Shown here in pieces: positions 11,323 through 43,560 of a stretch of 64,000 nucleotides of DNA. The notes below the pieces were generated by a model. The model did not search any database. It saw nothing but the letters and a program-made list of their open reading frames with translations, and was not told the origin of the DNA. The position numbers were made by a program, and so were the translations under genes. Source of the stretch: a virus; IMG/VR virus record IMGVR_UViG_3300008954_000005, positions 64,001-128,000 of that record, one strand, 5' to 3'. Each line of letters starts with the position of its first letter. Within the stretch, counting starts at the first letter, position 1.

Positions 11323-12780
11323 TTACTTTTTAGCCTTTACTGTCTTAGACGCTACATCATCTTCAAACGTAACTGTCGCGCTAGGGAGGACGGGTCCGCT
11401 AGGACCAGCCGGGGTAGCGCATGAGAACTTGCTCTCTAGCCAAGTCTTTAAATCCTGCCAACGAACCACCCCTTGTAGTTCGTCACTGTTGGTTCCCAAC
11501 TGAATATTTGCCTCTCCCTGAATAAGGACATCGCCCTTAACCTGGAAATCCATCTCTTCCAGCACCTTGAATAATACTGATTTTACTTGAGCTTCAAACT
11601 CATTAGTGTCTAATAATTCAAGGATACTCTGCTTATTTTCCTTGGTATCTTCGCTCCCACCGTCACCACCGTAAACAACCTTGATACCTTTATTAACACG
11701 CGCATATAGTGTCTGGTCTATCTCAGCGTGTATATGCCCCTTTGTGAAAACAAGTGCATCCCCTTCTCGATTTAGTTGGAAGGCGTAGCAAACGGAATCC
11801 TTGGTCTCGGTGTTCGTATCCTTCTCGGGGTCATGGTTGTAGATGGTAAGGCTGAGGATGCCCTTGGACTCTTTTCTAATACCTTTAGCTTTGTGGCTAC
11901 CCGTTAACCGTACTGGCTGATCAACTCGATCCTTGGTGGCTTTGTGCCCCAAATAACCAAACTCATGTTCAGCATCCTCCTCGGTATCTAAGACCTCTGG
12001 AGTTAAACGACCAATACGAAGCTCTACAGTGTACTTGCCTTCCTTAACGTCCTCTTGGCACAAATCTTTTATGTTGTACCGAACCATCACCGGCGTCTCT
12101 GCTGCCGCGCTCAGAGCCTTGCTCTTATCGGCCTCCTCCAACAAATCAGAAGACAAGTAGCCTAGAACCTCTGTGGGCGTTTCGCCCTCAACTAGTTGTG
12201 CGTGGCCCCATTCAATCTCTCCAACGGGGCTGTAGGCTTGGTATCTCTGGAAGTAGTCGCGTACTAAATTCTCGATGGGCAGGTAGACGCGCTGCGCTAA
12301 CCCAGTAGCGCCGATTTGTACCATCCCACCACGCCGAACAATGACATGATTACCGTCAATAGCACCCATGTAAATGTCGCCGGGTTCTAGGTTCTCCCGC
12401 ATTGCCCGGAAGTTCGGCCCAGCATCAGCGGACTCTTCAATCAATTCTGCGCTTGGGCCGTCCAACTCAGCCATGTGCTCCGGGACAACGGCTGGCTGTG
12501 CGTTTATGATGAACGAGAGGATAAAGGACGTCCCATCGGCACACTCACACACATAACAGTGTGAGTTCACTTCCGGCATCCAGTACAACCCACCAACATG
12601 ATCTTGATGACAATACCCAGCAGCAAAAGGAACATCCACCAATGCCTTATGCGTGTAAATCGTCATCAAGTCACAAGTAAACTCTTGCACGTTCACACTC
12701 TGTACCAGAGCTAGGTGCACCTTCGCGGGCCTGTCAGCAAACCCAGGAGTTTGCCCCATACCATCTTGAAATTCAGACAT
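11323..12780 (-). CDS. baseplate central spike (gpV/gp5/VgrG-like)
   Basis: N-terminal OB-fold-like segment (LALVQSVNVQEFTCDL...GGLYWMPEVNSHCYV), C-terminal beta-strand repeats, tip motif CATPAGPSGP. Confidence 0.7.
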   Translation of the reverse strand: MSEFQDGMGQTPGFADRPAKVHLALVQSVNVQEFTCDLMTIYTHKALVDVPFAAGYCHQDHVGGLYWMPEVNSHCYVCECADGTSFILSFIINAQPAVVPEHMAELDGPSAELIEESADAGPNFRAMRENLEPGDIYMGAIDGNHVIVRRGGMVQIGATGLAQRVYLPIENLVRDYFQRYQAYSPVGEIEWGHAQLVEGETPTEVLGYLSSDLLEEADKSKALSAAAETPVMVRYNIKDLCQEDVKEGKYTVELRIGRLTPEVLDTEEDAEHEFGYLGHKATKDRVDQPVRLTGSHKAKGIRKESKGILSLTIYNHDPEKDTNTETKDSVCYAFQLNREGDALVFTKGHIHAEIDQTLYARVNKGIKVVYGGDGGSEDTKENKQSILELLDTNEFEAQVKSVLFKVLEEMDFQVKGDVLIQGEANIQLGTNSDELQGVVRWQDLKTWLESKFSCATPAGPSGPVLPSATVTFEDDVASKTVKAKK

Positions 12781-15700
12781 TAATAAGGGCCTCCGCTATC
12801 TTTAGGCTTACCGAATTCAGCGGAATAAGCGATGCCTGGGGCGGGGTGTGTTCCGTGAAGATCAGACTCCCATCCCTCATTCGCAGCCCTAATAAAGGTT
12901 TCTTTAAGTTTTCGGTACTGAAGCCTAGCGATCCAGTCTGTACTCTGATCCAGAGGAAGTGTCTCGATACCACGGAGCATCGGCTGCACTCTGATCGGGG
13001 CTTTCATTTTGCCAGAACGATTGAGGGCAGCAGCGTGTGATAAAGAGATGTAGTCATTCTTGATAAACGAGGAGTCTCCAGGGTCAGTGACCCGCCCGAG
13101 GTTGGTTACCGCCTTGGTGACCACCTCAATGTTCCTTCGTTTAATCCCTTCGCTCTTATACACCTTGTTGATCTCGTCAGCGATGTACGCCTGGACTGTG
13201 TCTACGTTGGTCTTTGCCAATAGGTCTCGGGGCTCAATTACACCACTTGAAATCTGCTGGCCCTTCCTAACCTTGTCCCCAACACCGATACTGATCGTTC
13301 GCCCAGCCGGAACATAGATGTCCTCGTTACCAATAGAGATATCAAAACCACCGACAGGGCTCTTAGTCACCTTGCTTACCTCAGCGGTAGCTGGAGAAAG
13401 TACTGCTGCGTTAGGTAGCGTTGCGGGCATCTTCAGAAGTTGGCTAATCCGGTCAATGCCACCAACGACACCCGCAGAAGACCCGGCCACACCGCCCGTA
13501 TGGAATGTCTTCATAGACAACTGTGTGCCGCGTTCCCCCAATGCGGTTCCGGCAATAAGCCCGATATTGGTCCCCACCTCAACAGGCCTTCCACCATCCA
13601 TGAGCCCATAGCAGTGAGAACACAGCCCCTTCTTGGACTCACATTTCATAGGCGATCTAGCCACAACTTTAGAGACCTTTGAGGCCTTTAGCTTAGAAAG
13701 CAGCGCAGGGGTTATGGCCGTACCTGCGGGGACCGTGGATCCCCCAGCCTTAAAGGCTTTAGCAGTAAACCGATCAACTAAATCTGAGTCGCCAATATCT
13801 AGGGCAATCCCCCGCTTCGTACCACAATTATTCTGTGTAACTACGTAGCTAATAGCCGTGTTGGCTATTTGTTTATTCAGTGCCCCCGGAACAGATACAG
13901 ACTGTACCTTCTCAATGAGGCCCTTACGCGCACCAGATGAAGCGACCCAGTAATCAGAAGAACGCAGACCTTCGGAATATGACCTGTCTACAGGCACAGG
14001 AATAACCCGACCGCTCGCATTCTCTAGAAGCATGGGTCCGATAAGCATCTGCTGTAGCTGCGACCAAGCGGGTTTGACTCCTGCGTTGTTCATAGCTCTG
14101 AGTTTGTTTCCATCTTTGTCTAGAATCTTCTTAGCTTCTGACGACAGGTCTTCTGTCACCTTGGTATACAGGTCGATAATTTGAGCTTCGGCGGCGCTAG
14201 GAGAGATGAGCTTCATCTTCTCCTTTTTCCTGATGGCTGTTTCCTTAGCCCGCGCAACTTTCATCCTGCTATTGCGAAGCTCTGTGAGAGTGTTGAAGTC
14301 ATCCAAATCAAACGAGAACCCGGTGTCGTACGCATGACCAAAGCCAAGATTCTTTATCTTGTCTGCTGTGGCTTGGAACTCTGCGGGGCTTTTCACAGCT
14401 ACTTGGCGCAAGATGTTTTGGAGGACACCCTTCCCCATAATCAGCTTAGGGTCTGTGAGGATTTCTTCAGATTGAACCTTTTTCGGCAAGGCATTATTGA
14501 ATAATATTCTTCCCGCCGTTGTTCGTAATCCCCCAACAGACACAACATCAGTAGCTAGAATATCTCCAGCCTCTGCGGCGGCTAATGCTTCTTTAGCATC
14601 GGCAAACTTAGTTCTCGTCTTCTTCCCCATTTGGGTAAGCAGGTAGAGCCCTAACTGGCCCTCTAGGCTCGGCTGGTACATCACCCTCCCAGTAGCAGGG
14701 TTGAACAGGTTCTTTGAGGGCAGCATTTTATGCGCCTCATCGACGGCCTCTTGGGATACGGGCACAAAGATGGCCATTGTGTCCCCGTCAAAGTCAGCAT
14801 TGAACCCACCGGTCACCAGAGGGTGGATGTGGATGGACTTCTCATCGTGAAGTTTTGGCTTAAAGGCCATGATCCCAAACTTATGTAGAACTGGGTCACG
14901 CTTAAAAAGTACCGGGCGCTTGTTAACAGCAACCTCAAGGGCTCTATTCGCCAAAGAACTATTCTTCTCGATTTCTTCCCTAGCCTTGAGGGGCGTATAC
15001 CCCATGTTTACAAGCTCCTTCACCACAAAGGGCCTGTAGATCTTCATAGCCCCCTTCCTCGGAAGACCTAACTCGTCGAGGTGCAGATCCATATCGGGAA
15101 CAATGACCGACCGCATGGAGATGTCCTGCTTACGATCCAGAATTCGTTTGTGGAAAAAGCTCTGCTTTGGCGATTGACGGCCAGAGAGAATGGTGAGTAT
15201 TCCGGGGGGTCTTGCTTGACCATCCATAGTCATGGCCCCCTCTGTAGGGGTAGACACGCCCATCAAAGCATCCACAGCATTGTATAGGTCGCCCCGGAGC
15301 TTCGCGGTTGCGGACTCGGGCAAAACCCCATCGGCCTCCTTTAGCTTTTGGTTGAGCATGGCGATATCGCGGTACAACATGTTTGTACCATCGATGTTTA
15401 GATCCCCGCCCTCCATAGCGGTAATGGGCCTAAAGATAGGGGGCAGGACTGGCACATTGCTTATTCCGTACGCCTTGTCAGCGGAAAGGCCCTCCTTCTT
15501 GAGCATCAGCAGGTACTTAATCTTCTTGTTCAGCTTATCTAGCTCACCCCGTCTAGCGGTCTTTATCTGTTCCTTAGCCGAGGCAAGCTCTTCATCCACA
15601 TTTAGTGCAGCTAGGGCAGCAATGATTCCTTGAGGACCGACTATGTCTTTATGCGTTCCCGCAATAGCACTGTCGTACTCTTTCCCAGTCAGTCCCAGCA

Positions 15701-18700
15701 AAGACCGAACACCCTTTTCAAACATGGGGTTCGGCATAGAGGTTCCAAGAGCGATGTGCCCCCAATGATTACCGCCTGGGCCACCGGTCACGTCCTCATC
15801 AAATAGACCGCCCTTTTCTGGCTTTAGATCCTTGCCGCGAATTACGCGACTACCATCGGTAATCTCACCGTTAGAGGTCTCAAGAATTTGTTTATCCGTG
15901 AGAGGTGAGACAACAAGACCATTCCCCTCCTTCTCCACGTTAAGACCAAGAGCCCCCATGTACGCCAAGAATTTTTCATATGCGAACGATGGTTTTGGGT
16001 TGGGGAGGATCTGGCCTGTTTGGACTGCTGTCCAAATCTCATCCTGTTGCTTATCGCTTTTGTAGGTCAGTGCGTCCCGAATATTGGCTGTAGCTCCGTG
16101 GGCAAGCATGGCGTAAAGACCTAGTTCGCCAAACCGCTGTGCGCCTCCGGTTTCCCCACCGCCCTTGGGAACCAAGTTTGCGTCGTAGTCGTGTCCGTAA
16201 CCATGTGCCCTAGCACGGAGCTTCTTATCAATCTGATGTAGCAGCTTAAGCGTGTACTGCTTACCTACCAGTACTTGCCCCAGACTCTTCCCTGTGACCG
16301 GATCGAACAACTCCGTGGTTTCAGAGACGCCCTCTGCGGCAAGAACCTTCTTTACCTGCTCTTGGTAGCCGACTTCACGGTCGTGGGCCTTAATCGTTAT
16401 TTGCTTAGGGCCTTCTTTTGTCTGGATAGTGCGGGTGTGCTCCTTAACCCGGACAATCTTTTTCCCTCCGCTAGCCTGAAAGTTATCGACTGCGTAAGGC
16501 TCGCCCCGCTTGTCAGCAACCTTAGCCAAACTGGTCTCTAGGACCTGCCCTAGATTGATTCGGCCCGGAACACCAGAAGGATTCAGAATCAACTGGAGTG
16601 GGTTCCCTTCCGCATCTCTGGGCATCTCCTCATCAGGTATTACGGCAGTAATAACACCTTTATTGCCATGCCTACCTGTGAGTTTATCTCCTACGTCTGC
16701 GGGTTCTTCGGTCTTTACGTAGACCATTATCTCTCGACCATTACGAACAACATCCGTAACGACTCCGGCGTAAGGCTTCTCCCAGGTGACAGAGCGGTCC
16801 TTGAAGGGGCGTACCAGGGATTTATGGATTCCCTTCAACATCGCCTGCTCTTTTGAGGGCTCTGTCTTTTGGAGAACCGTCATCAAAGTGTCGCCTGGGT
16901 CAACCCGCTGGCCCTTCTTAATGACACCATCCTCATCCAGCTTGGCAGCGTTATCGTCCGTTACTGAGCCTGGGAAATTTGCCCGGAACTTGCGTAGCCC
17001 AACCTGCATATTTTTTTCAACGTACGCCCTATTTTTGTGCAGATGCTCGCTAGTCAGCTTCTTTGACGCCGTTTCAGAGATGACGATGCCGTCCTCAAAC
17101 ACCAAACCTTTGTAGGGGATGTAGCCAACCCTAAGGTTCGTGCCCATCGACAGCGTCCCGTCTTTTGTGAAGTTGGTGTCCGCGAGTGTCTGGCCAGCTT
17201 TGACGGTGTCCCCCTTCTTAACCAAGGGGGTGCTGCTGACAAAGGCCTTCTTGTCGTTCAGGGGAAAGTTGTCGTAGAGGGGCATCTCTACCTTGCTACC
17301 GTCCTTCGCCTGTAGAACGATTTTGGTGGCCCCAACAGACAGAACAGTCCCAGAGATTGGGCTGTTGTGACTAGTGAAGGAACCTACAATGTTTTCCCAC
17401 GTTTTAAACCGTTTGCTCGGGTTGCCGGAGACTACCTGCACAAGTGGTTGTTCTCGATCTTTTAGGGCTACCGCTTGTTCCATGTGGCGGGTAGCCATTC
17501 CAGCGCGATTAGCCTGATCCGTAGGGAGGAACGGGATCAGATTTGCTGTGATGGAGAACATGCCTTTGGGGGACCGAAGGATGTAATCGACCTCATTAGG
17601 CGCAACCTTCTCTGGATCCCCACCGTCTTTTCGGACAACCGTTACTAAGCTGTCAACGGCCTTAGGCTTCTTTCCAGAAAAGTCGTACTGGTCCGGGAAA
17701 GCGATGGCGGCATTAGCTAGGTCTGCTGGGCTTTTATCCACGTACGCCCCAGACTTGGTGTCGTACACAGTGATTAACGGCGTCGTCCCATCCTTCTTAA
17801 CACCCAAAGCAAGATGCCCGCTGATACCAGAACGCTTGCCCTCTGGTGTGTGCACCGGATCGATAAACCCTAGGAAGCTAGAGTCAATAAGCTTTGCATC
17901 ATCTGAAACAGCCTGCTCATTAGAAATACCACCCTGCCCCATAATGGTCGTTCGTAGGAACCCACCAATCATATCTACCGGGTTAACTTGGCTTGTTTGC
18001 TGGGACAGCGACGTTGACGTAAAGAAGGTTTTGATAGGGATGTTGAAGACATCCGGTGTAACGATGGCGCGAACGCTATCCTTCCTATCGATATTGTTCC
18101 CTAGCTTATACTGGATTCTTCTAGCTGAATTACCAATCCGCTCGGGAATGTGGTTGTCAATGGACCAAAGCTCCTTAAACCGAAGGGAGTCCCGATTATC
18201 AACCTCAGCCTCCCCCCTATTAATGGCTAATAACTTTCTAGAAGAGGCTAGCAGCGCACCACCGGAGACTTTATCGAAGCCTTCACCCAGGGTAATCGCT
18301 GTTGTATCTTTGAGTAACGCTGTTTTGTCGTACGCTTCTTTGACGATTGCCGCAGCCTCAGTATCGTTTGCTGGGGCGGCACCGCGTACAAGAGCCTTGG
18401 CGAGCTTAACGACCTCCCCCCGCTTTTTATCAGAGACGCTCCGTGCGTATAGCTCAGCCCCCCAAGCAGCACGGATGTCCTCATCCGGAATTCCCAAAGC
18501 TTGTAGAACGGGCAGTAGTTGAACGTTTGACGTTCCATACCCCATTAAGAATCTTCGTCTTGCGGGGTCGAATCCCAAACGGAAACCCCGCCCAGCCGCT
18601 AGGTTGAACTGGCTCTCAAGCTCTCCGTTGGCTTTACGTCTGGCGTACACCCCGGATTTTAGCCGCCACTGGTTGTCTACCTGATACTCCGTACCATCGA

Positions 18701-19013
18701 CAATGTAGCTATATCTTCTTGTGATTTTCGGGACAGCGGCAACTTTAACCTTAGCCACCTTATCTATGACTTTGCCGGTCTCGTTATCGACTAACTCAAA
18801 GTCACCATAGACTCCCTGAGCCCATGTTCGTCCACGTAATCTAGCTTTTTTCTGCGAAGGAATATCATCTAAATCAGTATCGCCCGTGGTGTAGATATTA
18901 CGAGCTACTAATGTTTGCTTCTTGCCTACTAGTGGAAAAAAACTATTTATTTTTTCTACGGTCCCGTCTTCGAGAGCTTTCATAACTCTCTGGGGATCTA
19001 GAACGTTTGCCAT
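12780..19013 (-). CDS. rpoBC: DNA-directed RNA polymerase, fused beta-beta' single polypeptide
   Basis: beta motifs DPVHTPEG, FEDGIVISE, GDKLTGRHGNKGVI, NPSGVPGRINLGQ, GGAQRFGE; then beta' motifs WGHI, VPVLPPIFRP, RDPVLH, catalytic NADFDGD (14781-14801), bridge helix GARKG, Zn site RSPMKC..LCSHCYG, trigger loop GERGTQLSMKTFHTGG. Confidence 0.97.
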   Translation of the reverse strand: MANVLDPQRVMKALEDGTVEKINSFFPLVGKKQTLVARNIYTTGDTDLDDIPSQKKARLRGRTWAQGVYGDFELVDNETGKVIDKVAKVKVAAVPKITRRYSYIVDGTEYQVDNQWRLKSGVYARRKANGELESQFNLAAGRGFRLGFDPARRRFLMGYGTSNVQLLPVLQALGIPDEDIRAAWGAELYARSVSDKKRGEVVKLAKALVRGAAPANDTEAAAIVKEAYDKTALLKDTTAITLGEGFDKVSGGALLASSRKLLAINRGEAEVDNRDSLRFKELWSIDNHIPERIGNSARRIQYKLGNNIDRKDSVRAIVTPDVFNIPIKTFFTSTSLSQQTSQVNPVDMIGGFLRTTIMGQGGISNEQAVSDDAKLIDSSFLGFIDPVHTPEGKRSGISGHLALGVKKDGTTPLITVYDTKSGAYVDKSPADLANAAIAFPDQYDFSGKKPKAVDSLVTVVRKDGGDPEKVAPNEVDYILRSPKGMFSITANLIPFLPTDQANRAGMATRHMEQAVALKDREQPLVQVVSGNPSKRFKTWENIVGSFTSHNSPISGTVLSVGATKIVLQAKDGSKVEMPLYDNFPLNDKKAFVSSTPLVKKGDTVKAGQTLADTNFTKDGTLSMGTNLRVGYIPYKGLVFEDGIVISETASKKLTSEHLHKNRAYVEKNMQVGLRKFRANFPGSVTDDNAAKLDEDGVIKKGQRVDPGDTLMTVLQKTEPSKEQAMLKGIHKSLVRPFKDRSVTWEKPYAGVVTDVVRNGREIMVYVKTEEPADVGDKLTGRHGNKGVITAVIPDEEMPRDAEGNPLQLILNPSGVPGRINLGQVLETSLAKVADKRGEPYAVDNFQASGGKKIVRVKEHTRTIQTKEGPKQITIKAHDREVGYQEQVKKVLAAEGVSETTELFDPVTGKSLGQVLVGKQYTLKLLHQIDKKLRARAHGYGHDYDANLVPKGGGETGGAQRFGELGLYAMLAHGATANIRDALTYKSDKQQDEIWTAVQTGQILPNPKPSFAYEKFLAYMGALGLNVEKEGNGLVVSPLTDKQILETSNGEITDGSRVIRGKDLKPEKGGLFDEDVTGGPGGNHWGHIALGTSMPNPMFEKGVRSLLGLTGKEYDSAIAGTHKDIVGPQGIIAALAALNVDEELASAKEQIKTARRGELDKLNKKIKYLLMLKKEGLSADKAYGISNVPVLPPIFRPITAMEGGDLNIDGTNMLYRDIAMLNQKLKEADGVLPESATAKLRGDLYNAVDALMGVSTPTEGAMTMDGQARPPGILTILSGRQSPKQSFFHKRILDRKQDISMRSVIVPDMDLHLDELGLPRKGAMKIYRPFVVKELVNMGYTPLKAREEIEKNSSLANRALEVAVNKRPVLFKRDPVLHKFGIMAFKPKLHDEKSIHIHPLVTGGFNADFDGDTMAIFVPVSQEAVDEAHKMLPSKNLFNPATGRVMYQPSLEGQLGLYLLTQMGKKTRTKFADAKEALAAAEAGDILATDVVSVGGLRTTAGRILFNNALPKKVQSEEILTDPKLIMGKGVLQNILRQVAVKSPAEFQATADKIKNLGFGHAYDTGFSFDLDDFNTLTELRNSRMKVARAKETAIRKKEKMKLISPSAAEAQIIDLYTKVTEDLSSEAKKILDKDGNKLRAMNNAGVKPAWSQLQQMLIGPMLLENASGRVIPVPVDRSYSEGLRSSDYWVASSGARKGLIEKVQSVSVPGALNKQIANTAISYVVTQNNCGTKRGIALDIGDSDLVDRFTAKAFKAGGSTVPAGTAITPALLSKLKASKVSKVVARSPMKCESKKGLCSHCYGLMDGGRPVEVGTNIGLIAGTALGERGTQLSMKTFHTGGVAGSSAGVVGGIDRISQLLKMPATLPNAAVLSPATAEVSKVTKSPVGGFDISIGNEDIYVPAGRTISIGVGDKVRKGQQISSGVIEPRDLLAKTNVDTVQAYIADEINKVYKSEGIKRRNIEVVTKAVTNLGRVTDPGDSSFIKNDYISLSHAAALNRSGKMKAPIRVQPMLRGIETLPLDQSTDWIARLQYRKLKETFIRAANEGWESDLHGTHPAPGIAYSAEFGKPKDSGGPY

Positions 19014-19042
19014 TGGGTGCCTCCGCGCTAACTACGCTCCCG

Positions 19043-19062
19043 TTTTAGGTATAAGAACTATG
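19043..19062 (+). promoter_or_regulatory. putative phage-RNAP promoter, copy 1 (TTTTAGGTATAAGAACTATG)
   Basis: 14 of 20 positions identical to the copies at 23119 and 42768; intergenic; upstream of a plus-strand gene. Confidence 0.7.
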
Positions 19063-23093: not shown

Positions 23094-23118
23094 TTCTATC
23101 TCCACAATGGTTGAGCCC

Positions 23119-23452: not shown

Positions 23453-23463
23453 CAGAGGACTCT

Positions 23464-35146: not shown

Positions 35147-35148
35147 TT

Positions 35149-35418: not shown

Positions 35419-35896
35419 TTACCTGCCCGCAGTTAGATCATCCTATTTTAGGGTGAAGGACAAAGAGAAGTTTCAAGATTGGTTCGATACCCTCATCTCT
35501 AGCGATGATGGTTTAGAGCTTTGGACAAAGGCGGTAGATACCGCAGAGGTCCACCAAAAGTACGCGAGTGACCCGGAAGAAGAGCCGTTTGAACTCGTAG
35601 CCTTCGGGGGGTACACCAGTTGGCCCTGTGAGCGCATAATTGTAAAAAATGATGGTGACGGGGGCGAGGGGGACGACTTTGAAGACTGTGAAGAAATCGA
35701 CTTCACAACGGAACTACAGGAGCACGTCCACGAGGACTGGTCTGTAATCTTACAAGAAATCGGATATGAGAAGCTCCGATACCTTGTGGGCTTCTGCGCC
35801 ATCGTAGATAGTGAAAATATTGAATGGATCGATCTGACCAACTGGGCCGTAACAAAGATCCCAGATGGAAGTAAGTTTACATCACCGGAGTACTGA
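35411..35896 (+). CDS. hypothetical phage protein
   Basis: MANY...RSSYFRVKD...EIGYEKLRYLVG. Confidence 0.75.
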   Translation: MANYLPAVRSSYFRVKDKEKFQDWFDTLISSDDGLELWTKAVDTAEVHQKYASDPEEEPFELVAFGGYTSWPCERIIVKNDGDGGEGDDFEDCEEIDFTTELQEHVHEDWSVILQEIGYEKLRYLVGFCAIVDSENIEWIDLTNWAVTKIPDGSKFTSPEY

Positions 35897-35899
35897 TAG

Positions 35900-36448
35900 A
35901 TGAACCTGAGCGAGTACCAAAGGTTAGCAGCGAGAACCATCCCAGTAGAAGAAATAGATAGCCTTCTAACGAACTTTTGTTTAGGTCTTGCTGGGGAGGG
36001 TGGGGAGTTGATTGACCACGTTAAGAAAGCGGTCTTTCATAAGCACGCCCTTGATAAAGATTACTTGGCTAAAGAGCTTGGTGATCTCCTTTGGTACATC
36101 GCCGGGATTTCGAGCATATTAAAACTCGACCTGTCGGACATAGGTGATATAAATATAGACAAGCTGAAGCGCCGTTATCCGAACGGCTTCACAACCCATC
36201 ACAGTGTTCACCGGGAGGAAGAATTGGACATAAATGACATGATCAAGAAGCGGCAAGTAGCCTTACTAGAAATCATCGGATCAGTGAATACCACTGTCAC
36301 CGAGGGTGATGCCGTCGTTGGGGCCTTCCTCGACATAGACCAAGGCTACGTTGAGCTAGAAGATGGCTCTGGCTACCGAATGTCTATGGGACCAGTAACC
36401 AAGTCTGAGATGCGTTCCGTGAAGAAACGCCTAAACCTAGAAGAGTAA
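35900..36448 (+). CDS. MazG-like nucleoside triphosphate pyrophosphohydrolase
   Basis: YQRLAART, LGLAGEGGE..D.VKK, KELGDLLWY, NIDKLKRRYPNGF. Confidence 0.9.
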   Translation: MNLSEYQRLAARTIPVEEIDSLLTNFCLGLAGEGGELIDHVKKAVFHKHALDKDYLAKELGDLLWYIAGISSILKLDLSDIGDINIDKLKRRYPNGFTTHHSVHREEELDINDMIKKRQVALLEIIGSVNTTVTEGDAVVGAFLDIDQGYVELEDGSGYRMSMGPVTKSEMRSVKKRLNLEE

Positions 36449-36452
36449 TATT

Positions 36453-36698
36453 ATGGAAAAATACAGCGACGCCTCCCAACTTGTCGCAACACTTCTGAAG
36501 ATGAAGCTCTGCGATTCTGAAGAGGCTGCGATGGAAAAAATAGCTTCCGGGAGAGCCCCCCAAATGATTAAGGACTTCAAGATGAAGCTGCTTAACGACA
36601 TGGTCAGTCTGTACAGAGACCAGCTTGGGGATGACGGTATGGACCCAGAACTTATCGAAGAATTTGAAAAAATGAGAAAAGAACTAGAGGAGACCTGA
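36453..36698 (+). CDS. small hypothetical protein
   Basis: 81 aa; coupled to RecA. Confidence 0.65.
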   Translation: MEKYSDASQLVATLLKMKLCDSEEAAMEKIASGRAPQMIKDFKMKLLNDMVSLYRDQLGDDGMDPELIEEFEKMRKELEET

Positions 36699-37780
36699 TG
36701 GCCAAAAAAGATCTAAGCCACCTCATTAAATCGGTACAAAAGCGTCTCGGTGGAGCCGCGACAGTTACCCCCATTACAGAGGTAGAGACCCCGTTTGATA
36801 CGAGGCTCCCTACCGGAATATTATCGCTTGATATCGCGTTAAAAGGCGGGTTGCCCGGTGGCTCAATGATCCAACTTTTCGGGCCAGACGGCGTAGGTAA
36901 AGACTACCTTTCGAACCGAGTGATTGCTGAGGTACAGCGGACACACGGAGACGCAGCTAACATTGCCTGGATGAGCTTCGGATACAAACCGGACCCAGGG
37001 TTCATGGAACTGGCTGGTATTGATCTAGATTGCGGAAACCTACTCTTTGTCGATCTCGCTACCACCGACTCCGATGCACCAGCAGAGACAATGCTGGACG
37101 CCATGCTAGAGATGGTTAAATCCCAGGAGTTCCACTTGTTGATCATCAACGAACTCGGCTCCGGAGAAACGCGACACAATCTAGTTAAAGGCCTGGGCGA
37201 AGACGCAAAAATCGCTACGTGGGCTTCTTTACTTAGTTCCTTCTGTCAGAAGTTCTACTCTGCCATGCGCGTTCCTGGCGAGGACGGCAAGCCCAACCAG
37301 ACTTGTGTAGTCATGATTAACCCGGTTCGGGCAAACATGAACGCGCACAGCGCGAAGTACGTTCCTTACACCCAGCCTGGGGGATACGCCCTCAAGCACG
37401 CAAAAGCTGTAGATATTCACTTGAAGCCGGGTCAGACCCTAAAGAAGGGAACGACAAAAATCGGAAAAGAGATCAAGTGGAAAATCTCAAAAGGCAAGCA
37501 CGGGATTAGCGAGGGTGCTGAGGGGAGCTATAGCTTCATCTTCAACCAAGGCGTAGATTTAGTTCAAGACCTAGCGCGTGCAGCAAAGGCACACGGTGTG
37601 GTTAGGAATAGCGGTCCTGTTTACTATATCCTCGATTACGAGGATAAAATCAAAGGTGGCCTGGATGGGGTAGTCTCAATGTTGAGATCGTCCCCAGAAC
37701 TAGCCGCTGAAGTCCGAGCCGCAGTGCTGGGTAAAACACCCAATGAAGAGGAGCCTTCTGATGATGAAGTACTTACCTGA
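36698..37780 (+). CDS. recA: RecA/UvsX-like recombinase with non-canonical ATPase motifs
   Basis: LPTGILSLDIALKGGLPGG, FGPDGVGK, TQPGGYALKH, KGKHG, GVDLVQDL, G..Y. Confidence 0.88.
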   Translation: MAKKDLSHLIKSVQKRLGGAATVTPITEVETPFDTRLPTGILSLDIALKGGLPGGSMIQLFGPDGVGKDYLSNRVIAEVQRTHGDAANIAWMSFGYKPDPGFMELAGIDLDCGNLLFVDLATTDSDAPAETMLDAMLEMVKSQEFHLLIINELGSGETRHNLVKGLGEDAKIATWASLLSSFCQKFYSAMRVPGEDGKPNQTCVVMINPVRANMNAHSAKYVPYTQPGGYALKHAKAVDIHLKPGQTLKKGTTKIGKEIKWKISKGKHGISEGAEGSYSFIFNQGVDLVQDLARAAKAHGVVRNSGPVYYILDYEDKIKGGLDGVVSMLRSSPELAAEVRAAVLGKTPNEEEPSDDEVLT

Positions 37781-38039
37781 ACCAGCTATTTTCATAGTGT
37801 TAATCTCATTCCTCGTCGTCTCTACCGGTTGGTACCTGTTCTGGATCCAACCAAACGATGCGAAGTTAGCGAAAATACACGCCTGTATGGGCGAAAAATA
37901 CGCCGACCTACAACAAGCCGATGGCGATCTCTGGCGAGTTTACGCTCGCTCTGGAACACTCTCGGCTAGTGCGGCAGGTAATGAGCTAGACCACGCTATT
38001 TACACCTCGTGTGTGAGACAGCTAAATACCGGTAACTAG
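37761..38039 (+). CDS. small membrane protein
   Basis: N-terminal TM helix AIFIVLISFLVVSTGWYLFWI; two Cys. Confidence 0.65.
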   Translation: MMKYLPEPAIFIVLISFLVVSTGWYLFWIQPNDAKLAKIHACMGEKYADLQQADGDLWRVYARSGTLSASAAGNELDHAIYTSCVRQLNTGN

Positions 38040-38040
38040 C

Positions 38041-38808
38041 ATGGCAAGACTCTGTATTCGGATAGGGCCAAAAGCACAACCGCACTATGTAGATGGGTTC
38101 CCCTTCCTTCCTGGGCTGTACTTTCACAAGCCGCCCAAGAAGGCAAAGGGGGGCACAGAGTATTCCATCACGCATATAAAGAGCGGTCTTGCGGTCCTCC
38201 CGAATATAGATGAGCGTCACCTAGAGCTATGCCGAATGATTCTAGGGCGCGTAGACTGGGACAAGGGCGCGGAACAGATTTACAACGACACAACATATGA
38301 CATCGTAATAAAGGAGGCATTAGCTGTGACCACAAACCGCGATGCTAGTAAAAAACAAGAGAAGCGCATCGCGAAAGAACTTGAAGGAAAAACTCAAGCA
38401 GGCTCCGGGTCAGTTTGGGGGTTCAGACGGGATGTGGTGACACCAGAGCTTCTGGTGGAAGCGAAGACAACAACAACGGGGAAATACGCCCTAAGCTTAA
38501 AAGACCTAAAGCACTTGAAATTTCAAGCATATTCAGAAGGTAAAATACCTGCGTACATAATAGAGTTTGCGAGGAAAGGTGAGGTAGCCATAGTCCCATT
38601 TCAGGATCTAGGAGAAGATTTCCTAGAAGAGCTTTCTTCTACTAGGGATATCCCAAGCAAAAAGAAATCTTCAAAGATATTAACTATTTCTCTAGAGATG
38701 GCCGCAGACGTTTTCAATGACGTAGGCGTGCGATTTACCGTTGAGTCGGATGAGTATCTACTGATGAGCTACGAGAATTTCCTCACCTTTGCGAAAAGAG
38801 GTATATGA
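38041..38808 (+). CDS. PD-(D/E)XK nuclease, Holliday-junction-resolvase-like, with extra N-terminal domain
   Basis: KKQEKRIAKEL.G.TQAGSGS....RDV...LLVEAKTT. Confidence 0.75.
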   Translation: MARLCIRIGPKAQPHYVDGFPFLPGLYFHKPPKKAKGGTEYSITHIKSGLAVLPNIDERHLELCRMILGRVDWDKGAEQIYNDTTYDIVIKEALAVTTNRDASKKQEKRIAKELEGKTQAGSGSVWGFRRDVVTPELLVEAKTTTTGKYALSLKDLKHLKFQAYSEGKIPAYIIEFARKGEVAIVPFQDLGEDFLEELSSTRDIPSKKKSSKILTISLEMAADVFNDVGVRFTVESDEYLLMSYENFLTFAKRGI

Positions 38809-38809
38809 A

Positions 38810-39523
38810 ATGGCAAAGAAAAAAGGATTTAGGATTCCAGCACGCTGCCTAAACGAAAAGAAGATAAAAGAGGACGGAGAGTTCTCAGTATTAAAAGAAA
38901 TAGAGCGTATTGACTTCGAATCAAACCTAGAGCCTTGGTCTAGAAGAACCGGTGGGTATCACCCATCCTCTCTTACGCCAACGGCCTGTAAACGTGCTCT
39001 TTGGTACGACCGGACAGGGCAAGAGCCCGAAAGCCGAATCCCATCAGATCTCCGTATGCTGTTTGACATGGGGCACGCGCTTCACGACATGATCCAAGAG
39101 AAGCTTGAGAAGGAGTTCGACGGATTCAACGCCGAGATCCCAATCAGTAACGAAGACCTCCACATCGTGGGCCACTGCGACGGAATATTCCGTGATAGGG
39201 ACTGGCTACTTGAGATCAAAACAGTGGGCGAGAGTGTGTTTAAATCACTTGTTCGGCCCAAGAAAGAGCATATCTACCAAGTACACTGTTACATGTTCTG
39301 CGAGGACGTCCCAAGGACTCAGCTACTTTACGTGGCTAGGGCGACGGGACAGATGCGACTCTTCAAGATTGAGTTCGACAACGACATCTTCCAGGAAATT
39401 GTGAGCATAATAAAGACAGTTGAAGAATTTGTAGAGGCTGGAGAAGCCCCTCCAAAGGAACCAAACAAATGGGTATGTAGAACATGTAAGTTTCAGCATG
39501 TCTGCCAGCCCTTCAGCGAGTAG
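38810..39523 (+). CDS. Cas4-like PD-(D/E)XK exonuclease with Fe-S cluster
   Basis: HPSSL..AC.R.LWY, GHALH, GHCDG, LEIKT, QVHCY, CRTCKFQHVC. Confidence 0.85.
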   Translation: MAKKKGFRIPARCLNEKKIKEDGEFSVLKEIERIDFESNLEPWSRRTGGYHPSSLTPTACKRALWYDRTGQEPESRIPSDLRMLFDMGHALHDMIQEKLEKEFDGFNAEIPISNEDLHIVGHCDGIFRDRDWLLEIKTVGESVFKSLVRPKKEHIYQVHCYMFCEDVPRTQLLYVARATGQMRLFKIEFDNDIFQEIVSIIKTVEEFVEAGEAPPKEPNKWVCRTCKFQHVCQPFSE

Positions 39524-39532
39524 GAGGTGCCT

Positions 39533-40078
39533 ATGGCTGAGAAGGATTTATTCCTTGAATTACGTGAAACACTAGAAAAAGATCTGCGTGCCACGGGTTT
39601 TGCTCCTGATCGGGAGCCACCCAGTGAAGAACCTAGACTACCTGCTGGGTTGAAGGACTTACCGAACGAAGACCTCAAAGAACTCTACGATGATTTCTTG
39701 GCGTTCTTTGAGTATCTTTCTGATCAAGTTGCTAAAGCCAGTAGCTACATGTCCGTCAGTAAAGCGAGACTTGAGGCGGTAACCGCGACGGCAACTCTTG
39801 CATCTGCCAAAGATAAAAAGTTAACCAACGCAGACCTCCGAAAGGCGTACGTCGTAACTGCCTGTTTAGGGGCAAAGCGGGACTACGTTTACTTCAAGGC
39901 AAAGGTAGATGTCCACGATGCTAGGCTAAGAAAGATAAGCAAAAGCATGGACAGAATCGGAAGAGAGCTATGGTTTAGAACACAAGATGAGCCCGAGCGT
40001 AACTCTGAGTTTTCCTTGAGTAAATCAAAGCCAGCAAAGAAATTTGCCGGGGGTTATAAGCCGGTGTCTCGTGAATAA
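39533..40078 (+). CDS. coiled-coil protein, possibly UvsY-like recombination mediator
   Basis: SD AGGAGG; long helical protein within the recombination cluster; function inferred from context. Confidence 0.55.
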   Translation: MAEKDLFLELRETLEKDLRATGFAPDREPPSEEPRLPAGLKDLPNEDLKELYDDFLAFFEYLSDQVAKASSYMSVSKARLEAVTATATLASAKDKKLTNADLRKAYVVTACLGAKRDYVYFKAKVDVHDARLRKISKSMDRIGRELWFRTQDEPERNSEFSLSKSKPAKKFAGGYKPVSRE

Positions 40079-40505
40079 AAATAAGACGGTGTTCACTGCA
40101 GAGTTGACGTTGCTACCACCGTCAGTTAACAATATGTATATCTATACTGCTCGTGGGCCTAGGCCGTCTAGCAAGATGAAACAGTTTAAAGCGAAAGCGT
40201 CTATGGAGATAGCCCAACAACTGTCCTTTGACGGGAGCCCTCTAAACGGAGACAAGCCCCATCGACTAAGTATTTACTACTACCTACCAGCCTTGTTCAA
40301 CAAGGGGTGGCCAACAAAGGCCAAGACCCGATTCAAGCGGCGGGACGTATCAAACTTAGTAAAGGTGTTAGAGGACGTACTGGCCGACTGTTTAGGTATC
40401 GACGATTCTTGTTTCACGGAGGAGTTTATTCAGAAATTAGACGGACCCGCCCATGACTTCGTGGGCATCAAAATAAAAATAGAAGAGCTTAGCGATGAAT
40501 CCTAA
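40071..40505 (+). CDS. rusA: RusA-family Holliday junction resolvase
   Basis: PPSVNNMY, RDVSNLVKVLEDVL..GIDDS. Confidence 0.88.
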   Translation: MNKNKTVFTAELTLLPPSVNNMYIYTARGPRPSSKMKQFKAKASMEIAQQLSFDGSPLNGDKPHRLSIYYYLPALFNKGWPTKAKTRFKRRDVSNLVKVLEDVLADCLGIDDSCFTEEFIQKLDGPAHDFVGIKIKIEELSDES

Positions 40506-40779
40506 AACAGGTAAGGAGGAACTAAGGCACATAGTCCTAGAACAAACAGGAGTCCGTGTGTCTCCATCAACAAAGCTAGAAGACCTACACAGTTTTCTGC
40601 AATTCAACCTAGAGGAAATACCAGAAACGCCTATCAATCAAATGAGAAATAGTCTTATAGCTTTTATTGAAAACAACCGTAGCAGGCTTTCCCTCCCATG
40701 TAATGGTAACTGCTACGAGCATCATGATGGGGTTGTATTATTCTGCTATAAACAACTCCTGGAGGAAGAAAATGGGTAA
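40495..40779 (+). CDS. hypothetical protein
   Basis: 94 aa; LPC.GNC..H....V..CY motif. Confidence 0.65.
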   Translation: MNPKTGKEELRHIVLEQTGVRVSPSTKLEDLHSFLQFNLEEIPETPINQMRNSLIAFIENNRSRLSLPCNGNCYEHHDGVVLFCYKQLLEEENG

Positions 40780-41563
40780 AGTAACAAAGAAAATGTTGAC
40801 CCCGCTCGACCGAGCGGAAATTAGAAAAATCGTAATCGTGGGAATGGGGATGGAACCCCTTGAAGCGTACACCAAGAAAGAGGGCGAAACGATCTCTTGG
40901 ATTCAAGAGCGTGCTGAAGACTTTGCGTCTCTGGACCTAGAGACCATTGGCGCGGAACAGTTCCGACCAAATGTCGTAGCGTACCTACAGCAGTTGCAGC
41001 AATTCATTCTTGGTAACTCCAAGGCTCCCACCTTCCCTACTGGCGGGGCCACGGAAGAGGCAGTGGAAGCTGAAGAAGGCACTGCTGTCACTGTTGAACC
41101 TCCTAAGAAGAGGAAGCGTGGACGTCCCCGCAAAAACCCGGTAGTAGAAACTGCTGCTACTGAAGAAACTGTCGAAGCTGCCCCTGCTAAGCGAAAGCGC
41201 GGTAGGCCACGCAAGACCACTACAGACGCCAAAGCTGCTACTAAGACGGCTACCAAGAAGCAGGAAACCACCGCCAAGAAAAAGAAGGGCGGCTTCCGAG
41301 TAAAGAAGACTGCTGCTGAAGCTGTTGAGGTGGTGAAGGAAGAAATTCCAACCACTACGCCTGAGGTCACCCTTAGTGTGGGTACCGACCTTAATTCCTT
41401 CCTGACGGGGATTGATAGCCTCCGTGGGGAGGTTCAGGCGATGCGTGCTGAGCAAGCGGCGATGTACGCTGATTTGCATGACGCTTTGGTATACATCCTT
41501 AATACGGCGATCATTGAAGACGATGATGACCTTATTAAGGACTTGTCACAACTAAAGAAGTAG
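40772..41563 (+). CDS. AT-hook/histone H1-like DNA-binding protein
   Basis: Two KRKRGRPRK AT-hooks, K/A/T-rich tract, C-terminal coiled coil; SD GGAGG. Confidence 0.8.
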   Translation: MGKVTKKMLTPLDRAEIRKIVIVGMGMEPLEAYTKKEGETISWIQERAEDFASLDLETIGAEQFRPNVVAYLQQLQQFILGNSKAPTFPTGGATEEAVEAEEGTAVTVEPPKKRKRGRPRKNPVVETAATEETVEAAPAKRKRGRPRKTTTDAKAATKTATKKQETTAKKKKGGFRVKKTAAEAVEVVKEEIPTTTPEVTLSVGTDLNSFLTGIDSLRGEVQAMRAEQAAMYADLHDALVYILNTAIIEDDDDLIKDLSQLKK

Positions 41564-41594: not shown

Positions 41595-41640
41595 GAAGGG
41601 GGGATCACCATCACGGTGGTCCCCCCTTCTTTTTTAGCTA
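41595..41640 (+). terminator. intrinsic terminator ending the replication block, with TCTTTTTTAGCT tail
   Basis: Stem GAAGGGGGGATCACC/GGTGGTCCCCCCTTC, U-tract, then AGCTA. Confidence 0.85.
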
Positions 41641-42635: not shown

Positions 42636-42641
42636 ATTATA
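42636..42641 (-). promoter_or_regulatory. TATAAT -10 box, 6 nt upstream of ATG (probable leaderless transcript)
   Basis: Minus strand ccaTATAATctaaatATG; no SD. Confidence 0.5.
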
Positions 42642-42675: not shown

Positions 42676-42767
42676 ATAATAATTTTTATTATTTAATAAT
42701 TACAGCGTAATAAAATACCCATTATCACTACGTAATAAATGCCCAAAAAGTGCAAAAATAGGGGTGT
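42676..42767. repeat. AT-rich intergenic element with an inverted repeat and a direct repeat
   Basis: ATAATAA-TTT-TTATTAT (42676-42692); CGTAATAAA(A)TRCCC twice (42706-42720, 42731-42744). Confidence 0.55.
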
Positions 42768-42787
42768 TTTTAGGGATAAGAATAGTG
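42768..42787 (+). promoter_or_regulatory. putative phage-RNAP promoter, copy 3 (TTTTAGGGATAAGAATAGTG)
   Basis: Matches the motifs at 19043 and 23119; heads a two-gene plus-strand unit. Confidence 0.7.
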
Positions 42788-42847: not shown

Positions 42848-43027
42848 GTGGGTAATACTTTTCGAATCATTGGTCAGGTGTTTTTGACCGTCGTCGCAGT
42901 CGACGTAGCTATCAAGGCCTATCGCGGTCTGGCTAGCGTCGGTACCGATGCTGCCAACATCATCGAGGCGAAGTATCGCAATCGTGCGAACCGTGCTCTC
43001 GAAGCTGTTGGTGCGGACCCCCGGTAG
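42848..43027 (+). CDS. 59-aa protein with N-terminal hydrophobic helix (below the ORF-track cutoff)
   Basis: SD AGGAGG then GTG; MGNTFRIIGQVFLTVVAVDVAIKAYRGLASVGTDAANIIEAKYRNRANRALEAVGADPR*. Confidence 0.7.
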   Translation: MGNTFRIIGQVFLTVVAVDVAIKAYRGLASVGTDAANIIEAKYRNRANRALEAVGADPR

Positions 43028-43085
43028 TCGTTGAATTCTCAACGGCTTTTCTTTCAACGCAACTCAACCCATTAAGGAGGGAAAT

Positions 43086-43496
43086 ATGTTGCAAGCAATC
43101 AGGCCTGCTGGTCAGGCCATCATTCAGAACCGAACTGTTCAACAGTTCGTCCTTGCCGTAGGATGCGGCGTCACCACGCTCTACACGATCCGTGCACTAG
43201 ATAATCTAGGCGCACGTCGTCGTCGGTGGGCGAGCAATCGTCAGGCCCTGAAGGCCCAACGACAGGCTGCGAAGCTGGCAAAGGCTGAAGAAGCGAAGGC
43301 TGTTGAAGCCTCCACTGCTACTCCCGAGCCGGTGACGGAGGCTGTTGTTTCCGACGCTGTTCAGACCGTCATGGAGGGTGCAAGCTTTAACGAGCTTCGC
43401 GCTGCTGCCAAGTCGCACGGTCTGGATGTTGGTCCTCACCCGACCAAGGAAGCGTTGGCTCGCGCCATCGTGGAGTTCCAAACCGCCTCAGCATAA
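43086..43496 (+). CDS. membrane-anchored protein with C-terminal Rho-N/HeH (SAP/LEM-like) domain
   Basis: SD AAGGAGG; hydrophobic FVLAVGCGVTTLYTI; basic coiled linker; SFNELRAAAKSHGLDVGPHPTKEALARAI. Confidence 0.75.
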   Translation: MLQAIRPAGQAIIQNRTVQQFVLAVGCGVTTLYTIRALDNLGARRRRWASNRQALKAQRQAAKLAKAEEAKAVEASTATPEPVTEAVVSDAVQTVMEGASFNELRAAAKSHGLDVGPHPTKEALARAIVEFQTASA

Positions 43497-43520
43497 TCTT
43501 ATTCTGAGGAAGACAGTCAG

Positions 43521-43560
43521 AAAGAGGAGGGGGGTAACACCCCCTTCTCTTTTTTAGCTA
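43521..43560 (+). terminator. intrinsic terminator with TCTTTTTTAGCT tail
   Basis: Stem AAAGAGGAGGGGG/CCCCCTTCTCTTT, U-tract, then AGCTA. Confidence 0.85.

What the first reader, a model, noticed from the sequence alone, without database searches (positions are those of the whole stretch)
12780..43560. Candidate self-contained phage transcription system: fused beta-beta' RNAP with its own paired promoter and terminator signals
Seen: three plus-strand units (19167-19445; 23180-41563; 42848-43496) are each preceded by the same 20-bp motif and followed by the same 12-mer TCTTTTTTAGCT. The window also encodes a complete single-chain two-barrel RNAP and a SNF2 ATPase inside the morphogenesis block. 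No alpha, omega or sigma gene is recognisable here. Established: phiKZ-like, N4-like and crAss-like phages package RNAPs for early transcription, and metagenomic Caudovirales with deep-branching bacterial-like multisubunit RNAPs have been reported. I do not know of cis-signals described for this type. Inference: this RNAP, probably virion-packaged, recognises the motif and uses the AGCT-tailed terminator for an early programme independent of host RNAP.
Basis: partly seen in the sequence, partly recalled or inferred. Interest (0 to 1): 0.9.

Follow-up and report, generated by a model that had tools for sequence, protein, structure and literature searches.

The report
Phage polymerase, sigma and own promoter
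This uncultured marine phage encodes a bacterial-type RNA polymerase core as a single protein plus its own sigma factor, which very probably read a two-part promoter that marks non-structural genes across a whole phage lineage, including the cultured Salmonella phage Arash; the proposed special terminator is ordinary.

Summary
The polymerase and promoter are real; the special terminator is not. Window 12780-19013(-) is an intact 2077-aa beta-beta' fusion beside the portal gene. The '20-bp motif' is a bipartite promoter-like element, AA-N16-GGnATAAG-N5-TG (3 in window, 0.01 expected), with sigma-28-like geometry. It faces away from the polymerase gene in 53 of 54 relatives, recurs in 20 of 20 genomes, and occurs 20 times in cultured Salmonella phage Arash. 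It is found in 19 of 21 related genomes and, among 50,697 phage records, only in the four carrying this polymerase. Arash virions contain the beta, beta', sigma and SNF2 homologues (published proteome). Core and sigma show matched interface substitutions. No alpha gene was found. Of the three 12-mers, two are ordinary intrinsic terminators and one is portal coding sequence. Best model (0.68): a packaged phage core plus sigma transcribes early genes; host sigma-70 probably transcribes the virion block. No transcript or biochemical data exist. Earlier scan notes reached this reading on other genomes.

The parts
12780..19013 (-). Single-chain beta-beta' RNA polymerase, 2077 aa; catalytic residues intact; beta' N-terminal zinc finger lost; rifampicin pocket, sigma-binding clamp helices and two alpha-assembly positions altered. 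Its likely partner, a 299-aa group-3-like sigma factor (homologue of Arash gp10), lies OUTSIDE the window at G000:C1:153079-153978(-), locus L106:1501-2397
   Evidence: RNAP. Sigma:
19028..19062 (+). Promoter copy 1: AA at 19030-31, GGTATAAG at 19048-55, TG at 19061-62 (predicted +1 = G19062); points away from the RNAP gene
   Evidence: the same position and orientation in 53 of 54 non-redundant relatives
19093..19120 (-). Candidate host sigma-70-type promoter (TTGTTA-N16-TATACT with TG) 80 nt upstream of the RNAP start; unconfirmed single site
   Evidence: such matches are at chance frequency in this region, so weak
19167..19445 (+). 92-aa Cys-rich gene in a variable slot between portal and RNAP; similar Cys-rich ORFs in L001, L006, L009, unrelated short ORFs in others
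19442..21445 (-). Portal protein (34% identical to Arash gp204)
19606..19617 (+). 12-mer copy 1: not a hairpin terminator; antisense of portal codons E-L-K-K-M
21455..23093 (-). Two conserved genes (219 and 331 aa) heading the portal-RNAP-terminase block throughout the metagenomic relatives; function not assigned
23104..23138 (+). Promoter copy 2: AA 23106-07, GGTATAAG 23124-31, TG 23137-38; heads the replication block
23180..41563 (+). DNA replication and recombination block: HTH, SF2 helicase, UDG, DnaB, primase, family A DNA polymerase, MazG, RecA, Cas4-like nuclease
41595..41639 (+). Ordinary intrinsic terminator (15-bp hairpin plus U-tract); its tail overlaps the stop codon of the converging vWA gene 41634-42629(-)
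42636..42641 (-). Perfect TATAAT 6 nt upstream of the ATG of the vWA-domain gene (candidate leaderless host-type promoter)
   Evidence: single site
42753..42787 (+). Promoter copy 3: GCAA at 42753-56, GGGATAAG 42773-80, TG 42786-87
42848..43496 (+). Two small non-structural genes (59 and 136 aa)
43526..43559 (+). Ordinary intrinsic terminator at a convergent junction
5070..6857 (-). SNF2-family ATPase, homologue of Arash gp217 (27%); beside the RNAP block only in the close clade and Arash
3075..4724 (-). Terminase large subunit (GpA-type ATPase, PF05876)

Best explanation
The phage encodes a minimal bacterial-type holoenzyme: a single-chain beta-beta' core and a dedicated group-3-like (FliA/SigB-like) sigma factor. 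Both genes lie in the virion block and the proteins are probably packaged and injected. Sigma region 4 reads the upstream (G/C)(C/A)AA element at about -34 to -31, regions 2-3 read GGnATAAG at -14 to -7, and transcription starts at the G of the conserved TG. These promoters drive replication genes, tRNAs and small non-structural genes. Transcripts end at ordinary intrinsic terminators. The virion block, including the RNAP gene, is probably transcribed later by host sigma-70 holoenzyme from promoters lying back to back with the phage promoter. The covalent beta-beta' link probably replaces alpha-dependent assembly. SHOWN here: the genes, the motif, its orientation, conservation and co-occurrence with core and sigma. 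PUBLISHED for a distant relative: presence in virions. INFERRED: who reads the motif, the start site, timing, alpha independence, rifampicin resistance, host-driven late transcription.
For: (1) Motif in 53 of 54 non-redundant RNAP-upstream regions, facing away from the RNAP gene, at 37-78% RNAP identity. (2) 20 of 20 genomes carry 5-20 copies against 0-6 for the reversed control. GGTATAA is the top 7-mer upstream of non-structural genes (49 against 2.4) and is not among the enriched words upstream of virion genes. (3) In 109 intergenic sites chosen on the core alone, positions 18 and 17 nt upstream are A in 83% and 82%. With TG as -1/+1, ATAA falls at -11 to -8 and AA at -32/-31, the positions of ATAA and AA in the sigma-28 fliC promoter (PMC12784957). 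(4) A sigma gene exists: E 1e-21 to Arash gp10, profile hits to sigma factors down to E 2.5e-14, SigBFG hits 17/17 and FliA/WhiG 16/17 members, below the curated cut-offs, Foldseek hits listed are sigma factors. It is single copy in 19 of 21 genomes. Among 50,697 phage records only Arash and Vibrio phages D69, D148, D181 have it, the best phage matches of this RNAP. (5) Arash has 20 copies, 19 on the non-structural strand, mostly just upstream of a ribosome-binding site; D69 has a GTTATAAG form. (6) Arash virion proteome: beta gp206 is the most detected protein (128 unique peptides), beta' 40, sigma gp10 24, SNF2 gp217 38, portal 32; primase, ligase and UDG have 2-3, and the second sigma gp196 is not listed (PMC10585845). 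(7) Matched interface changes: beta' R275 (17 of 19 bacteria) is never R in 21 phage enzymes and E295 (17 of 19) is L in 15 of 21; the sigma region 2.2 positions aligning to D403 and Q406 are A in 16 and 14 of 17. (8) Complex model of RNAP 560-1320 with sigma 66-299: score 0.71, best control 0.00; the mark was reached by 58 of 80 solved and 2 of 110 mismatched pairs; runs agree in at least 83% of contacts; partner pLDDT at least 76; contacts at clamp helices/region 2.2 and flap tip/region 4. This is a textbook pair, so the pass shows likeness only. (9) TTG-N16-18-TAnnnT points into the RNAP gene in 24 of 41 distant relatives (shuffle mean 3.5, max 10; other strand 1), and in about half of these its TTG is the reverse complement of the phage promoter's CAA. 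14 of 17 RNAP genes without a Shine-Dalgarno have TAnnnT 4-18 nt upstream, against 2.1 in shuffles.
Against: No transcript, start-site or biochemical data exist for this phage or, as far as found, for Arash. The Arash proteome lists 116 proteins including clear non-structural ones, and its authors allow carry-over; Arash is only about 31% identical. The window's RNAP carries none of the K-x-A motifs enriched in virion-block proteins. The sigma-70-type late promoter is absent between motif and start in the close clade (0 of 10), and a genome-wide test on crude gene calls was negative (3 against 2.2). G017 (91% complete) has the motif and RNAP but no sigma hit. In several relatives and in Arash a motif copy lies upstream of the sigma gene, so sigma is not purely a late gene. 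The upstream AA element is weak in Arash (63% and 37%). Related genomes are not independent observations.
Confidence: 0.68

Rival explanations
1. Phage core plus phage sigma read the motif, but are not injected: host RNAP first transcribes the RNAP and sigma genes, and the motif marks a middle programme.
For: Host-type promoters directly precede the RNAP gene in 24 of 41 distant relatives. The RNAP has no K-x-A motif. A 230-kDa protein must pass a tail channel.
Against: The RNAP gene sits in the portal-terminase-capsid block in the relatives examined. In Arash, core and sigma are detected in particles with peptide counts like the portal's. In several genomes sigma lies behind the motif, which would need pre-existing sigma.
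Confidence: 0.14
2. The phage sigma redirects the HOST core enzyme to the motif, as in T4-like or phiEco32-like strategies, and the phage core does something else, such as late transcription.
For: Phage sigma factors thought to use host core are common (PMC7824862). The complex model does not test host core. No second phage-specific motif was found for late genes, which leaves their polymerase open.
Against: Sigma lacks the D403/Q406-equivalent residues used on the bacterial clamp helices, and the phage core has matched hydrophobic changes. Sigma and core co-occur closely. Late-block promoters look like sigma-70 sites in many relatives.
Confidence: 0.09
3. The motif is read by a host alternative sigma (FliA/WhiG or SigB/SigF type) or is an operator for a phage DNA-binding protein, unrelated to the phage RNAP.
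For: Geometry matches sigma-28 promoters. An HTH gene lies in the motif-led replication operon.
Against: The -10 element differs from GCCGATAA upstream of the ATAA. The motif is kept across phages of 44-64% G+C and in Salmonella and Vibrio phages. It is non-palindromic, oriented, and ends in a pyrimidine-purine step at start-site distance.
Confidence: 0.05
4. One reading: TCTTTTTTAGCT is a dedicated signal paired with the promoter and read by the phage RNAP, even without a hairpin.
For: Three exact copies in the window and a fourth T6-AGCT terminator at G000:27251. A T-tract followed by AG lies in the portal 3' end of several close relatives. AG is the second most common 2-mer after U-tracts (44 of 290).
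Against: The exact 12-mer occurs 0-1 times in 11 related genomes. Most strong terminators of this genome have other tails (ACCT, ACCC, ACAT, ATTT). The 19606 copy has no hairpin and follows from Lys-Lys codons. At 41634 the tail overlaps the converging gene's stop codon.
Confidence: 0.07

Closest known systems
Salmonella phage Arash (OQ632216; PMC10585845) and Vibrio phages D69/D148/D181
   Same: Homologous RNAP (about 30-31%), portal (34%), MCP (28%), TerL (26%), sigma gp10 (30%), SNF2 gp217 (27%); RNAP next to portal; same motif before non-structural genes. Core, sigma and SNF2 were found in Arash particles.
   Different: Arash and D69 split the core after the beta' catalytic barrel (1525 + 606 aa in Arash); here it is one chain. 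Arash has a second sigma (gp196) with no homologue here. The paper describes no promoter (the word does not occur) and no function.
mReC Caudovirales (Weinheimer and Aylward 2020, PMC7481178); YerA41, Carin-5, RHph_TM30 as probable cultured examples (my inference)
   Same: Beta and beta' recognisably homologous to cellular enzymes and branching outside bacteria; the YerA41/Carin-5 enzymes join this lineage in my tree.
   Different: mReC entries seen have separate beta and beta' genes, MCP of PF07068 and PF03237 terminase; here fused, no Pfam hit for the MCP, PF05876 terminase. YerA41, Carin-5 and TM30 keep RNAP genes among replication genes; YerA41 and Carin-5 keep the beta' zinc finger. The paper mentions no sigma, promoter or virion location.
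phiKZ/AR9 virion RNAPs (PMC7598289)
   Same: Injected two-barrel RNAP without alpha or omega, an early promoter motif centred near -10, a linked SNF2 helicase.
   Different: Those are split into five or more highly diverged polypeptides, come as two sets, and make infection host-independent. Here there is one near-bacterial chain, a canonical sigma-70-family factor and a -35/-10 promoter.
Sigma-28 (FliA/WhiG) and SigB/F/G holoenzymes
   Same: Sigma regions 2, 3 and 4 without region 1.1; ATAA at -11 to -8 and AA at -32/-31.
   Different: GGn in place of GCCG; scores far below the family cut-offs; core-binding region 2.2 altered; the partner core lacks the beta' zinc finger proposed to stabilise sigma-28 open complexes.
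crAss-like phi14:2 gp66 and N4 virion RNAP (from my own knowledge)
   Same: Works alike: single-chain packaged RNAP for early genes, host RNAP for late genes.
   Different: gp66 is barely alignable to cellular enzymes and N4 vRNAP is T7-like; neither uses a phage sigma-70-family factor.

Membership tests
Two-barrel multisubunit-type RNAP (active enzyme) | beta' DxDxD, beta E813/D814, K1065, K1073, R1106, trigger-loop His, second Zn site | tested here: met
   All present in the window protein; invariant in 21 of 21 phage sequences
Bacterial RNAP core | Alpha subunit gene and alpha-assembly residues; beta' N-terminal Zn finger; rifampicin pocket | tested here: not met
   No PF01000 or PF01193 match over cut-off in 21 genomes; beta G1215 is P in 21/21 and D1084 is E in 20/21; Zn finger deleted in 21/21; D516, H526, S531, L533, I572 changed in the window protein. 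The role of D1084/G1215 in assembly is from my own knowledge.
Bacterial RNAP core | Omega subunit | not tested
   PF01192 was not searched
mReC (Weinheimer and Aylward 2020) | Beta and beta' detectable with cellular profiles | tested here: met
mReC (Weinheimer and Aylward 2020) | Falls in the deep phage RNAP clade | tested here: inconclusive
   FastTree on 1937 columns: phage enzymes separate from 19 bacterial ones with support 1.0, this lineage sister to YerA41/Carin-5. The paper's own sequences and archaea/eukaryotes were not included; long branches may attract.
mReC (Weinheimer and Aylward 2020) | MCP of PF07068; TerL of PF03237 | tested here: not met
   MCP (28% to Arash gp226) has no Pfam hit at E 0.05; TerL hits PF05876
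mReC (Weinheimer and Aylward 2020) | Separate beta and beta' genes, as in the entries read | tested here: not met
   One ORF here; only parts 1 and 10 of 14 of the paper's table were read
phiKZ/AR9-type RNAPs | Two sets of split, highly diverged subunits | tested here: not met
   One fused gene here, about 27-33% identical to bacterial enzymes
Sigma-70 family, group 3 | Regions 2, 3 and 4, no region 1.1 | tested here: met
FliA/WhiG or SigB/F/G subfamily | Curated NCBIfam cut-off | tested here: not met
   15.9 bits against 189.6 and 25 bits against 234: works like, but is not a member
Virion-packaged RNAP | Present in purified particles and active without protein synthesis | not testable with these tools
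   Indirect only: Arash homologues in the virion proteome
Intrinsic terminator | G+C-rich hairpin followed by a U-tract (sites 41595 and 43526) | tested here: met
Intrinsic terminator | G+C-rich hairpin followed by a U-tract (site 19606) | tested here: not met
   z 0.06, inside the portal gene
Arash-like unclassified myovirus lineage | Shared portal, MCP, TerL, sheath, RNAP, sigma and motif | tested here: met

The most novel reading that the evidence does not exclude
A two-protein, alpha- and omega-free, rifampicin-resistant holoenzyme (one core chain plus one sigma), orthogonal to the host machinery through a rewired clamp/sigma-2.2 interface, is injected from the virion. It reads one lineage-wide sigma-28-like promoter whose -35 overlaps the -35 of an opposing host sigma-70 promoter, so that the two enzymes form a built-in early/late switch: phage enzyme early, host enzyme late.
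Probability: 0.35. Interest if true: 0.85.

Novelty: new variant of a known kind. Interest (0 to 1): 0.7.

Why it matters
Packaged phage RNA polymerases are known, but those characterised are T7-like or very diverged. This one stays close to the bacterial enzyme, yet lacks alpha, carries its own sigma and has a defined promoter. It bears on whether a bacterial-type core can assemble and work without alpha and omega, and on how sigma-core specificity can be rewired. A cultured member (Arash, on laboratory Salmonella Typhimurium) has the same motif and sigma, so each step can be tested directly. If true it also offers a compact orthogonal transcription system. I found no paper describing the promoter or the sigma-core pairing in the searchable library, which lacks most subscription journals.

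Tried and rejected
Pfam Sigma70_r2/r4 searches of the own genome missed the sigma; the weak r4 hit at G000:40916 is a ParB-like protein. Window genes of 331, 219, 270, 485 and 656 aa were considered as sigma or alpha substitutes: no family hits, and the 331-aa gene shows no similarity to Arash gp196. The Atlas gave only a weak terminase-small-subunit lead for the 270-aa gene and nothing for the 656-aa gene. A second sigma is sporadic (over cut-off in 5 of 21 genomes) and absent here. I first considered the motif as pointing into the minus-strand genes, since all three copies sit at divergent junctions; rejected because genome-wide copies face downstream non-structural genes. De novo k-mers found no phage-specific late motif. 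A genome-wide sigma-70 test at late junctions was negative on crude gene calls. The GTDB scan returned only ordinary bacterial rpoBC, so no host was identified. The treekit run did not finish; FastTree was used. Sequencing runs: no RNA holder listed. Literature searches for the motif, YerA41 promoters, mReC follow-ups and RP13 returned nothing relevant. Six IMG sample ids of my loci did not match mReC entries in the stored supplements, one of which is cut.
Full report
Context. The window is bases 64001-128000 of a 155,722-bp linear phage contig, estimated 87% complete. Near-identical DNA lies in marine metagenomes of two studies, one of which may be the source. One strand carries the virion block (portal, RNAP, SNF2, terminase, capsid, sheath); the other carries replication and small non-structural genes.

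Observation check. The RNAP is one ORF of 2077 aa with beta domains first and beta' domains second, the junction near residue 1031 and NADFDGD at 1405. All catalytic residues checked are intact. The three upstream motifs exist but share only 12-16 of 20 bases; what is conserved is AA-N16-GGnATAAG-N5-TG, found exactly at the three places named, against 0.01 expected. All three sit at divergent junctions, so their direction was open at first. The 12-mer is present three times. Two copies are tails of strong hairpins; the copy at 19606 has no hairpin and is the antisense of portal codons.

The motif is a lineage-wide, oriented, bipartite element. Seventy IMG/VR loci encode relatives of the RNAP at 37-78% identity, mostly as one fused ORF. 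In 53 of 54 non-redundant loci the motif lies upstream of the RNAP gene on the opposite strand. Twenty of 20 genomes carry 5-20 copies against 0-6 for the reversed pattern. It is the top 7-mer upstream of non-structural genes and is not among the enriched words upstream of virion genes. In this genome about a dozen intergenic copies face non-structural genes, one of them a tRNA. In 109 intergenic sites selected on the core only, the AA 17-18 nt upstream appears in 82-83%, so it is part of the element and not an accident of the RNAP junction. If the conserved TG is -1/+1 (inference), ATAA lies at -11 to -8 and AA at -32/-31, as in the sigma-28 fliC promoter with (-15)GCCGATAA(-8) and (-36)TCTAAAG(-30) (PMC12784957).

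A cultured relative. The best true phage matches are Vibrio phages D181, D148, D69 and Salmonella phage Arash. Arash shares portal, capsid, terminase, sheath and SNF2 with this genome. It has 20 copies of the motif, 19 on the non-structural strand and mostly just before a ribosome-binding site; the one on the virion strand precedes gp9-gp10, gp10 being its sigma. D69 has a GTTATAAG form. In the published Arash virion proteome, beta is the most detected protein, and beta', sigma gp10 and SNF2 gp217 have 24-40 unique peptides, like the portal (32), whereas primase, ligase and UDG have 2-3. The list is long (116 proteins) and the authors allow carry-over (PMC10585845).

The missing sigma. Searching with Arash gp10 found a 299-aa homologue at G000:153079-153978, 25 kb beyond the window, in the virion block (E 1e-21). 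It has regions 2, 3 and 4 and no region 1.1. The listed PDB matches of its profile are all sigma factors, as are those of its model by Foldseek, though global TM-scores are low, as expected for mobile domains. It is closest to SigB/F/G and FliA/WhiG models, far below their cut-offs. It is single copy in 19 of 21 genomes, and among 50,697 phage records occurs only in the four that carry this RNAP.

Core and sigma look like an exclusive pair. Against Salmonella rpoBC and 18 other bacteria, the clamp-helix residues R275 and E295 (each 17 of 19) are replaced in the phage enzymes, mostly by hydrophobic residues; the sigma positions aligning to D403 and Q406 are Ala (the roles of these bacterial residues are from my own knowledge). 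A complex model placed region 2.2 on the clamp helices and region 4 on the flap tip: score 0.71, best control 0.00; the mark was reached by 58 of 80 solved and 2 of 110 mismatched pairs; runs agree in at least 83% of contacts; partner pLDDT at least 76. Sigma-core is a textbook pair, so this shows likeness, not that this copy binds, and it does not exclude binding to host core.

Alpha and rifampicin. No alpha domain was found in 21 genomes. Beta G1215, invariant in 19 bacteria, is Pro in 21 of 21 phage enzymes, and D1084 is Glu in 20. Even where the enzyme is split (Arash, D69), beta stays joined to the beta' catalytic barrel. This fits assembly without alpha, but use of host alpha is not excluded. 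The rifampicin pocket is altered at D516, H526, S531, L533 and I572, which predicts resistance (inference). The beta' N-terminal zinc finger is lost throughout the lineage.

Who transcribes the virion block. In distant relatives a TTG-N16-18-TAnnnT site points into the RNAP gene in 24 of 41 cases (shuffles 3.5, max 10), and in about half of these its TTG is the complement of the phage promoter's CAA. Several heads of the block carry TTGAC-N17/18-TAnnnT, and Arash portal and gp222 have similar sites. In the window's own compact clade this was not seen (0 of 10); the window offers only single candidates at 19093-19120 and 42636-42641. A crude genome-wide test was negative. I put host sigma-70 late transcription at about 0.55.

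Terminators. Of 290 hairpin-plus-U sites in 12 genomes, 10 are followed by AGCT; the exact 12-mer occurs 0-1 times in relatives; most strong terminators of this genome have other tails. They are ordinary intrinsic terminators at convergent junctions, one overlapping the opposite stop codon.

Comparison. It works like the packaged early RNAPs of phiKZ/AR9, N4 and crAss-like phages, but is a member of none. Its RNAP branches outside bacteria together with YerA41 and Carin-5, but the mReC markers (PF07068 capsid, PF03237 terminase, separate genes) are not met, so I do not file it under mReC. It belongs to the unclassified Arash-like lineage. I found no publication of the promoter or the sigma-core pairing. 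Earlier AI notes of this scan reached the same reading on other genomes; I formed my reading before that look-up and do not count them as evidence.

Verdict. Observation partly confirmed; interpretation partly supported and improved by the sigma factor. New variant of a known kind; interest 0.7, mainly because a cultured relative makes an alpha-free, bacterial-type phage holoenzyme and its promoter directly testable.

Noticed in passing
G000 virion-strand proteins, e.g. window 8763-10733 and 22098-23093; G000:147402-154836: A K-x-A motif is enriched in virion-block proteins (EKTA 38 against 4.1 expected over 11 genomes; EKAA 7 against 0 in Arash), including the MCP and sigma N-termini but not this RNAP. 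Possibly a head-maturation or packaging signal.
   Followed up: partly
G000:34930-38165 (L072:14930-18165): Four co-oriented genes with weak E2 (UQ_con) and JAB hits: a possible phage ubiquitin-like conjugation operon.
   Followed up: partly
window 42670-42760: Very A+T-rich stretch with short repeats just upstream of promoter copy 3; possible origin or UP-like element.
   Followed up: no
L034, L041, L045, L050, L055, L069 and others: RNAP, portal and TerL genes of many relatives are 300-900 aa longer, probably from inteins.
   Followed up: no
G000:28465-31700: Four tRNA genes (Lys, Leu, Ile, Arg); the first starts about 19 nt after the predicted start site of a motif copy at 28432.
   Followed up: partly
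window 5070-6857: The SNF2 ATPase is next to the RNAP block only in the close clade and Arash; most distant clades lack it there, so it is not a core part of the system.
   Followed up: partly
G017 (record behind L028): A 91%-complete relative with RNAP and 16 motif copies but no sigma hit; either in the missing part or diverged.
   Followed up: no
window 43561-63199 and G000:127214-141735: Several giant minus-strand ORFs (2883, 1532, 2225, 2613 aa); those scanned have few or no family hits; probably tail and baseplate proteins.
   Followed up: no
window 7945-8757: Conserved helical 270-aa protein upstream of SNF2/TerL, homologous to Arash gp219; weak lead to terminase small subunit.
   Followed up: partly
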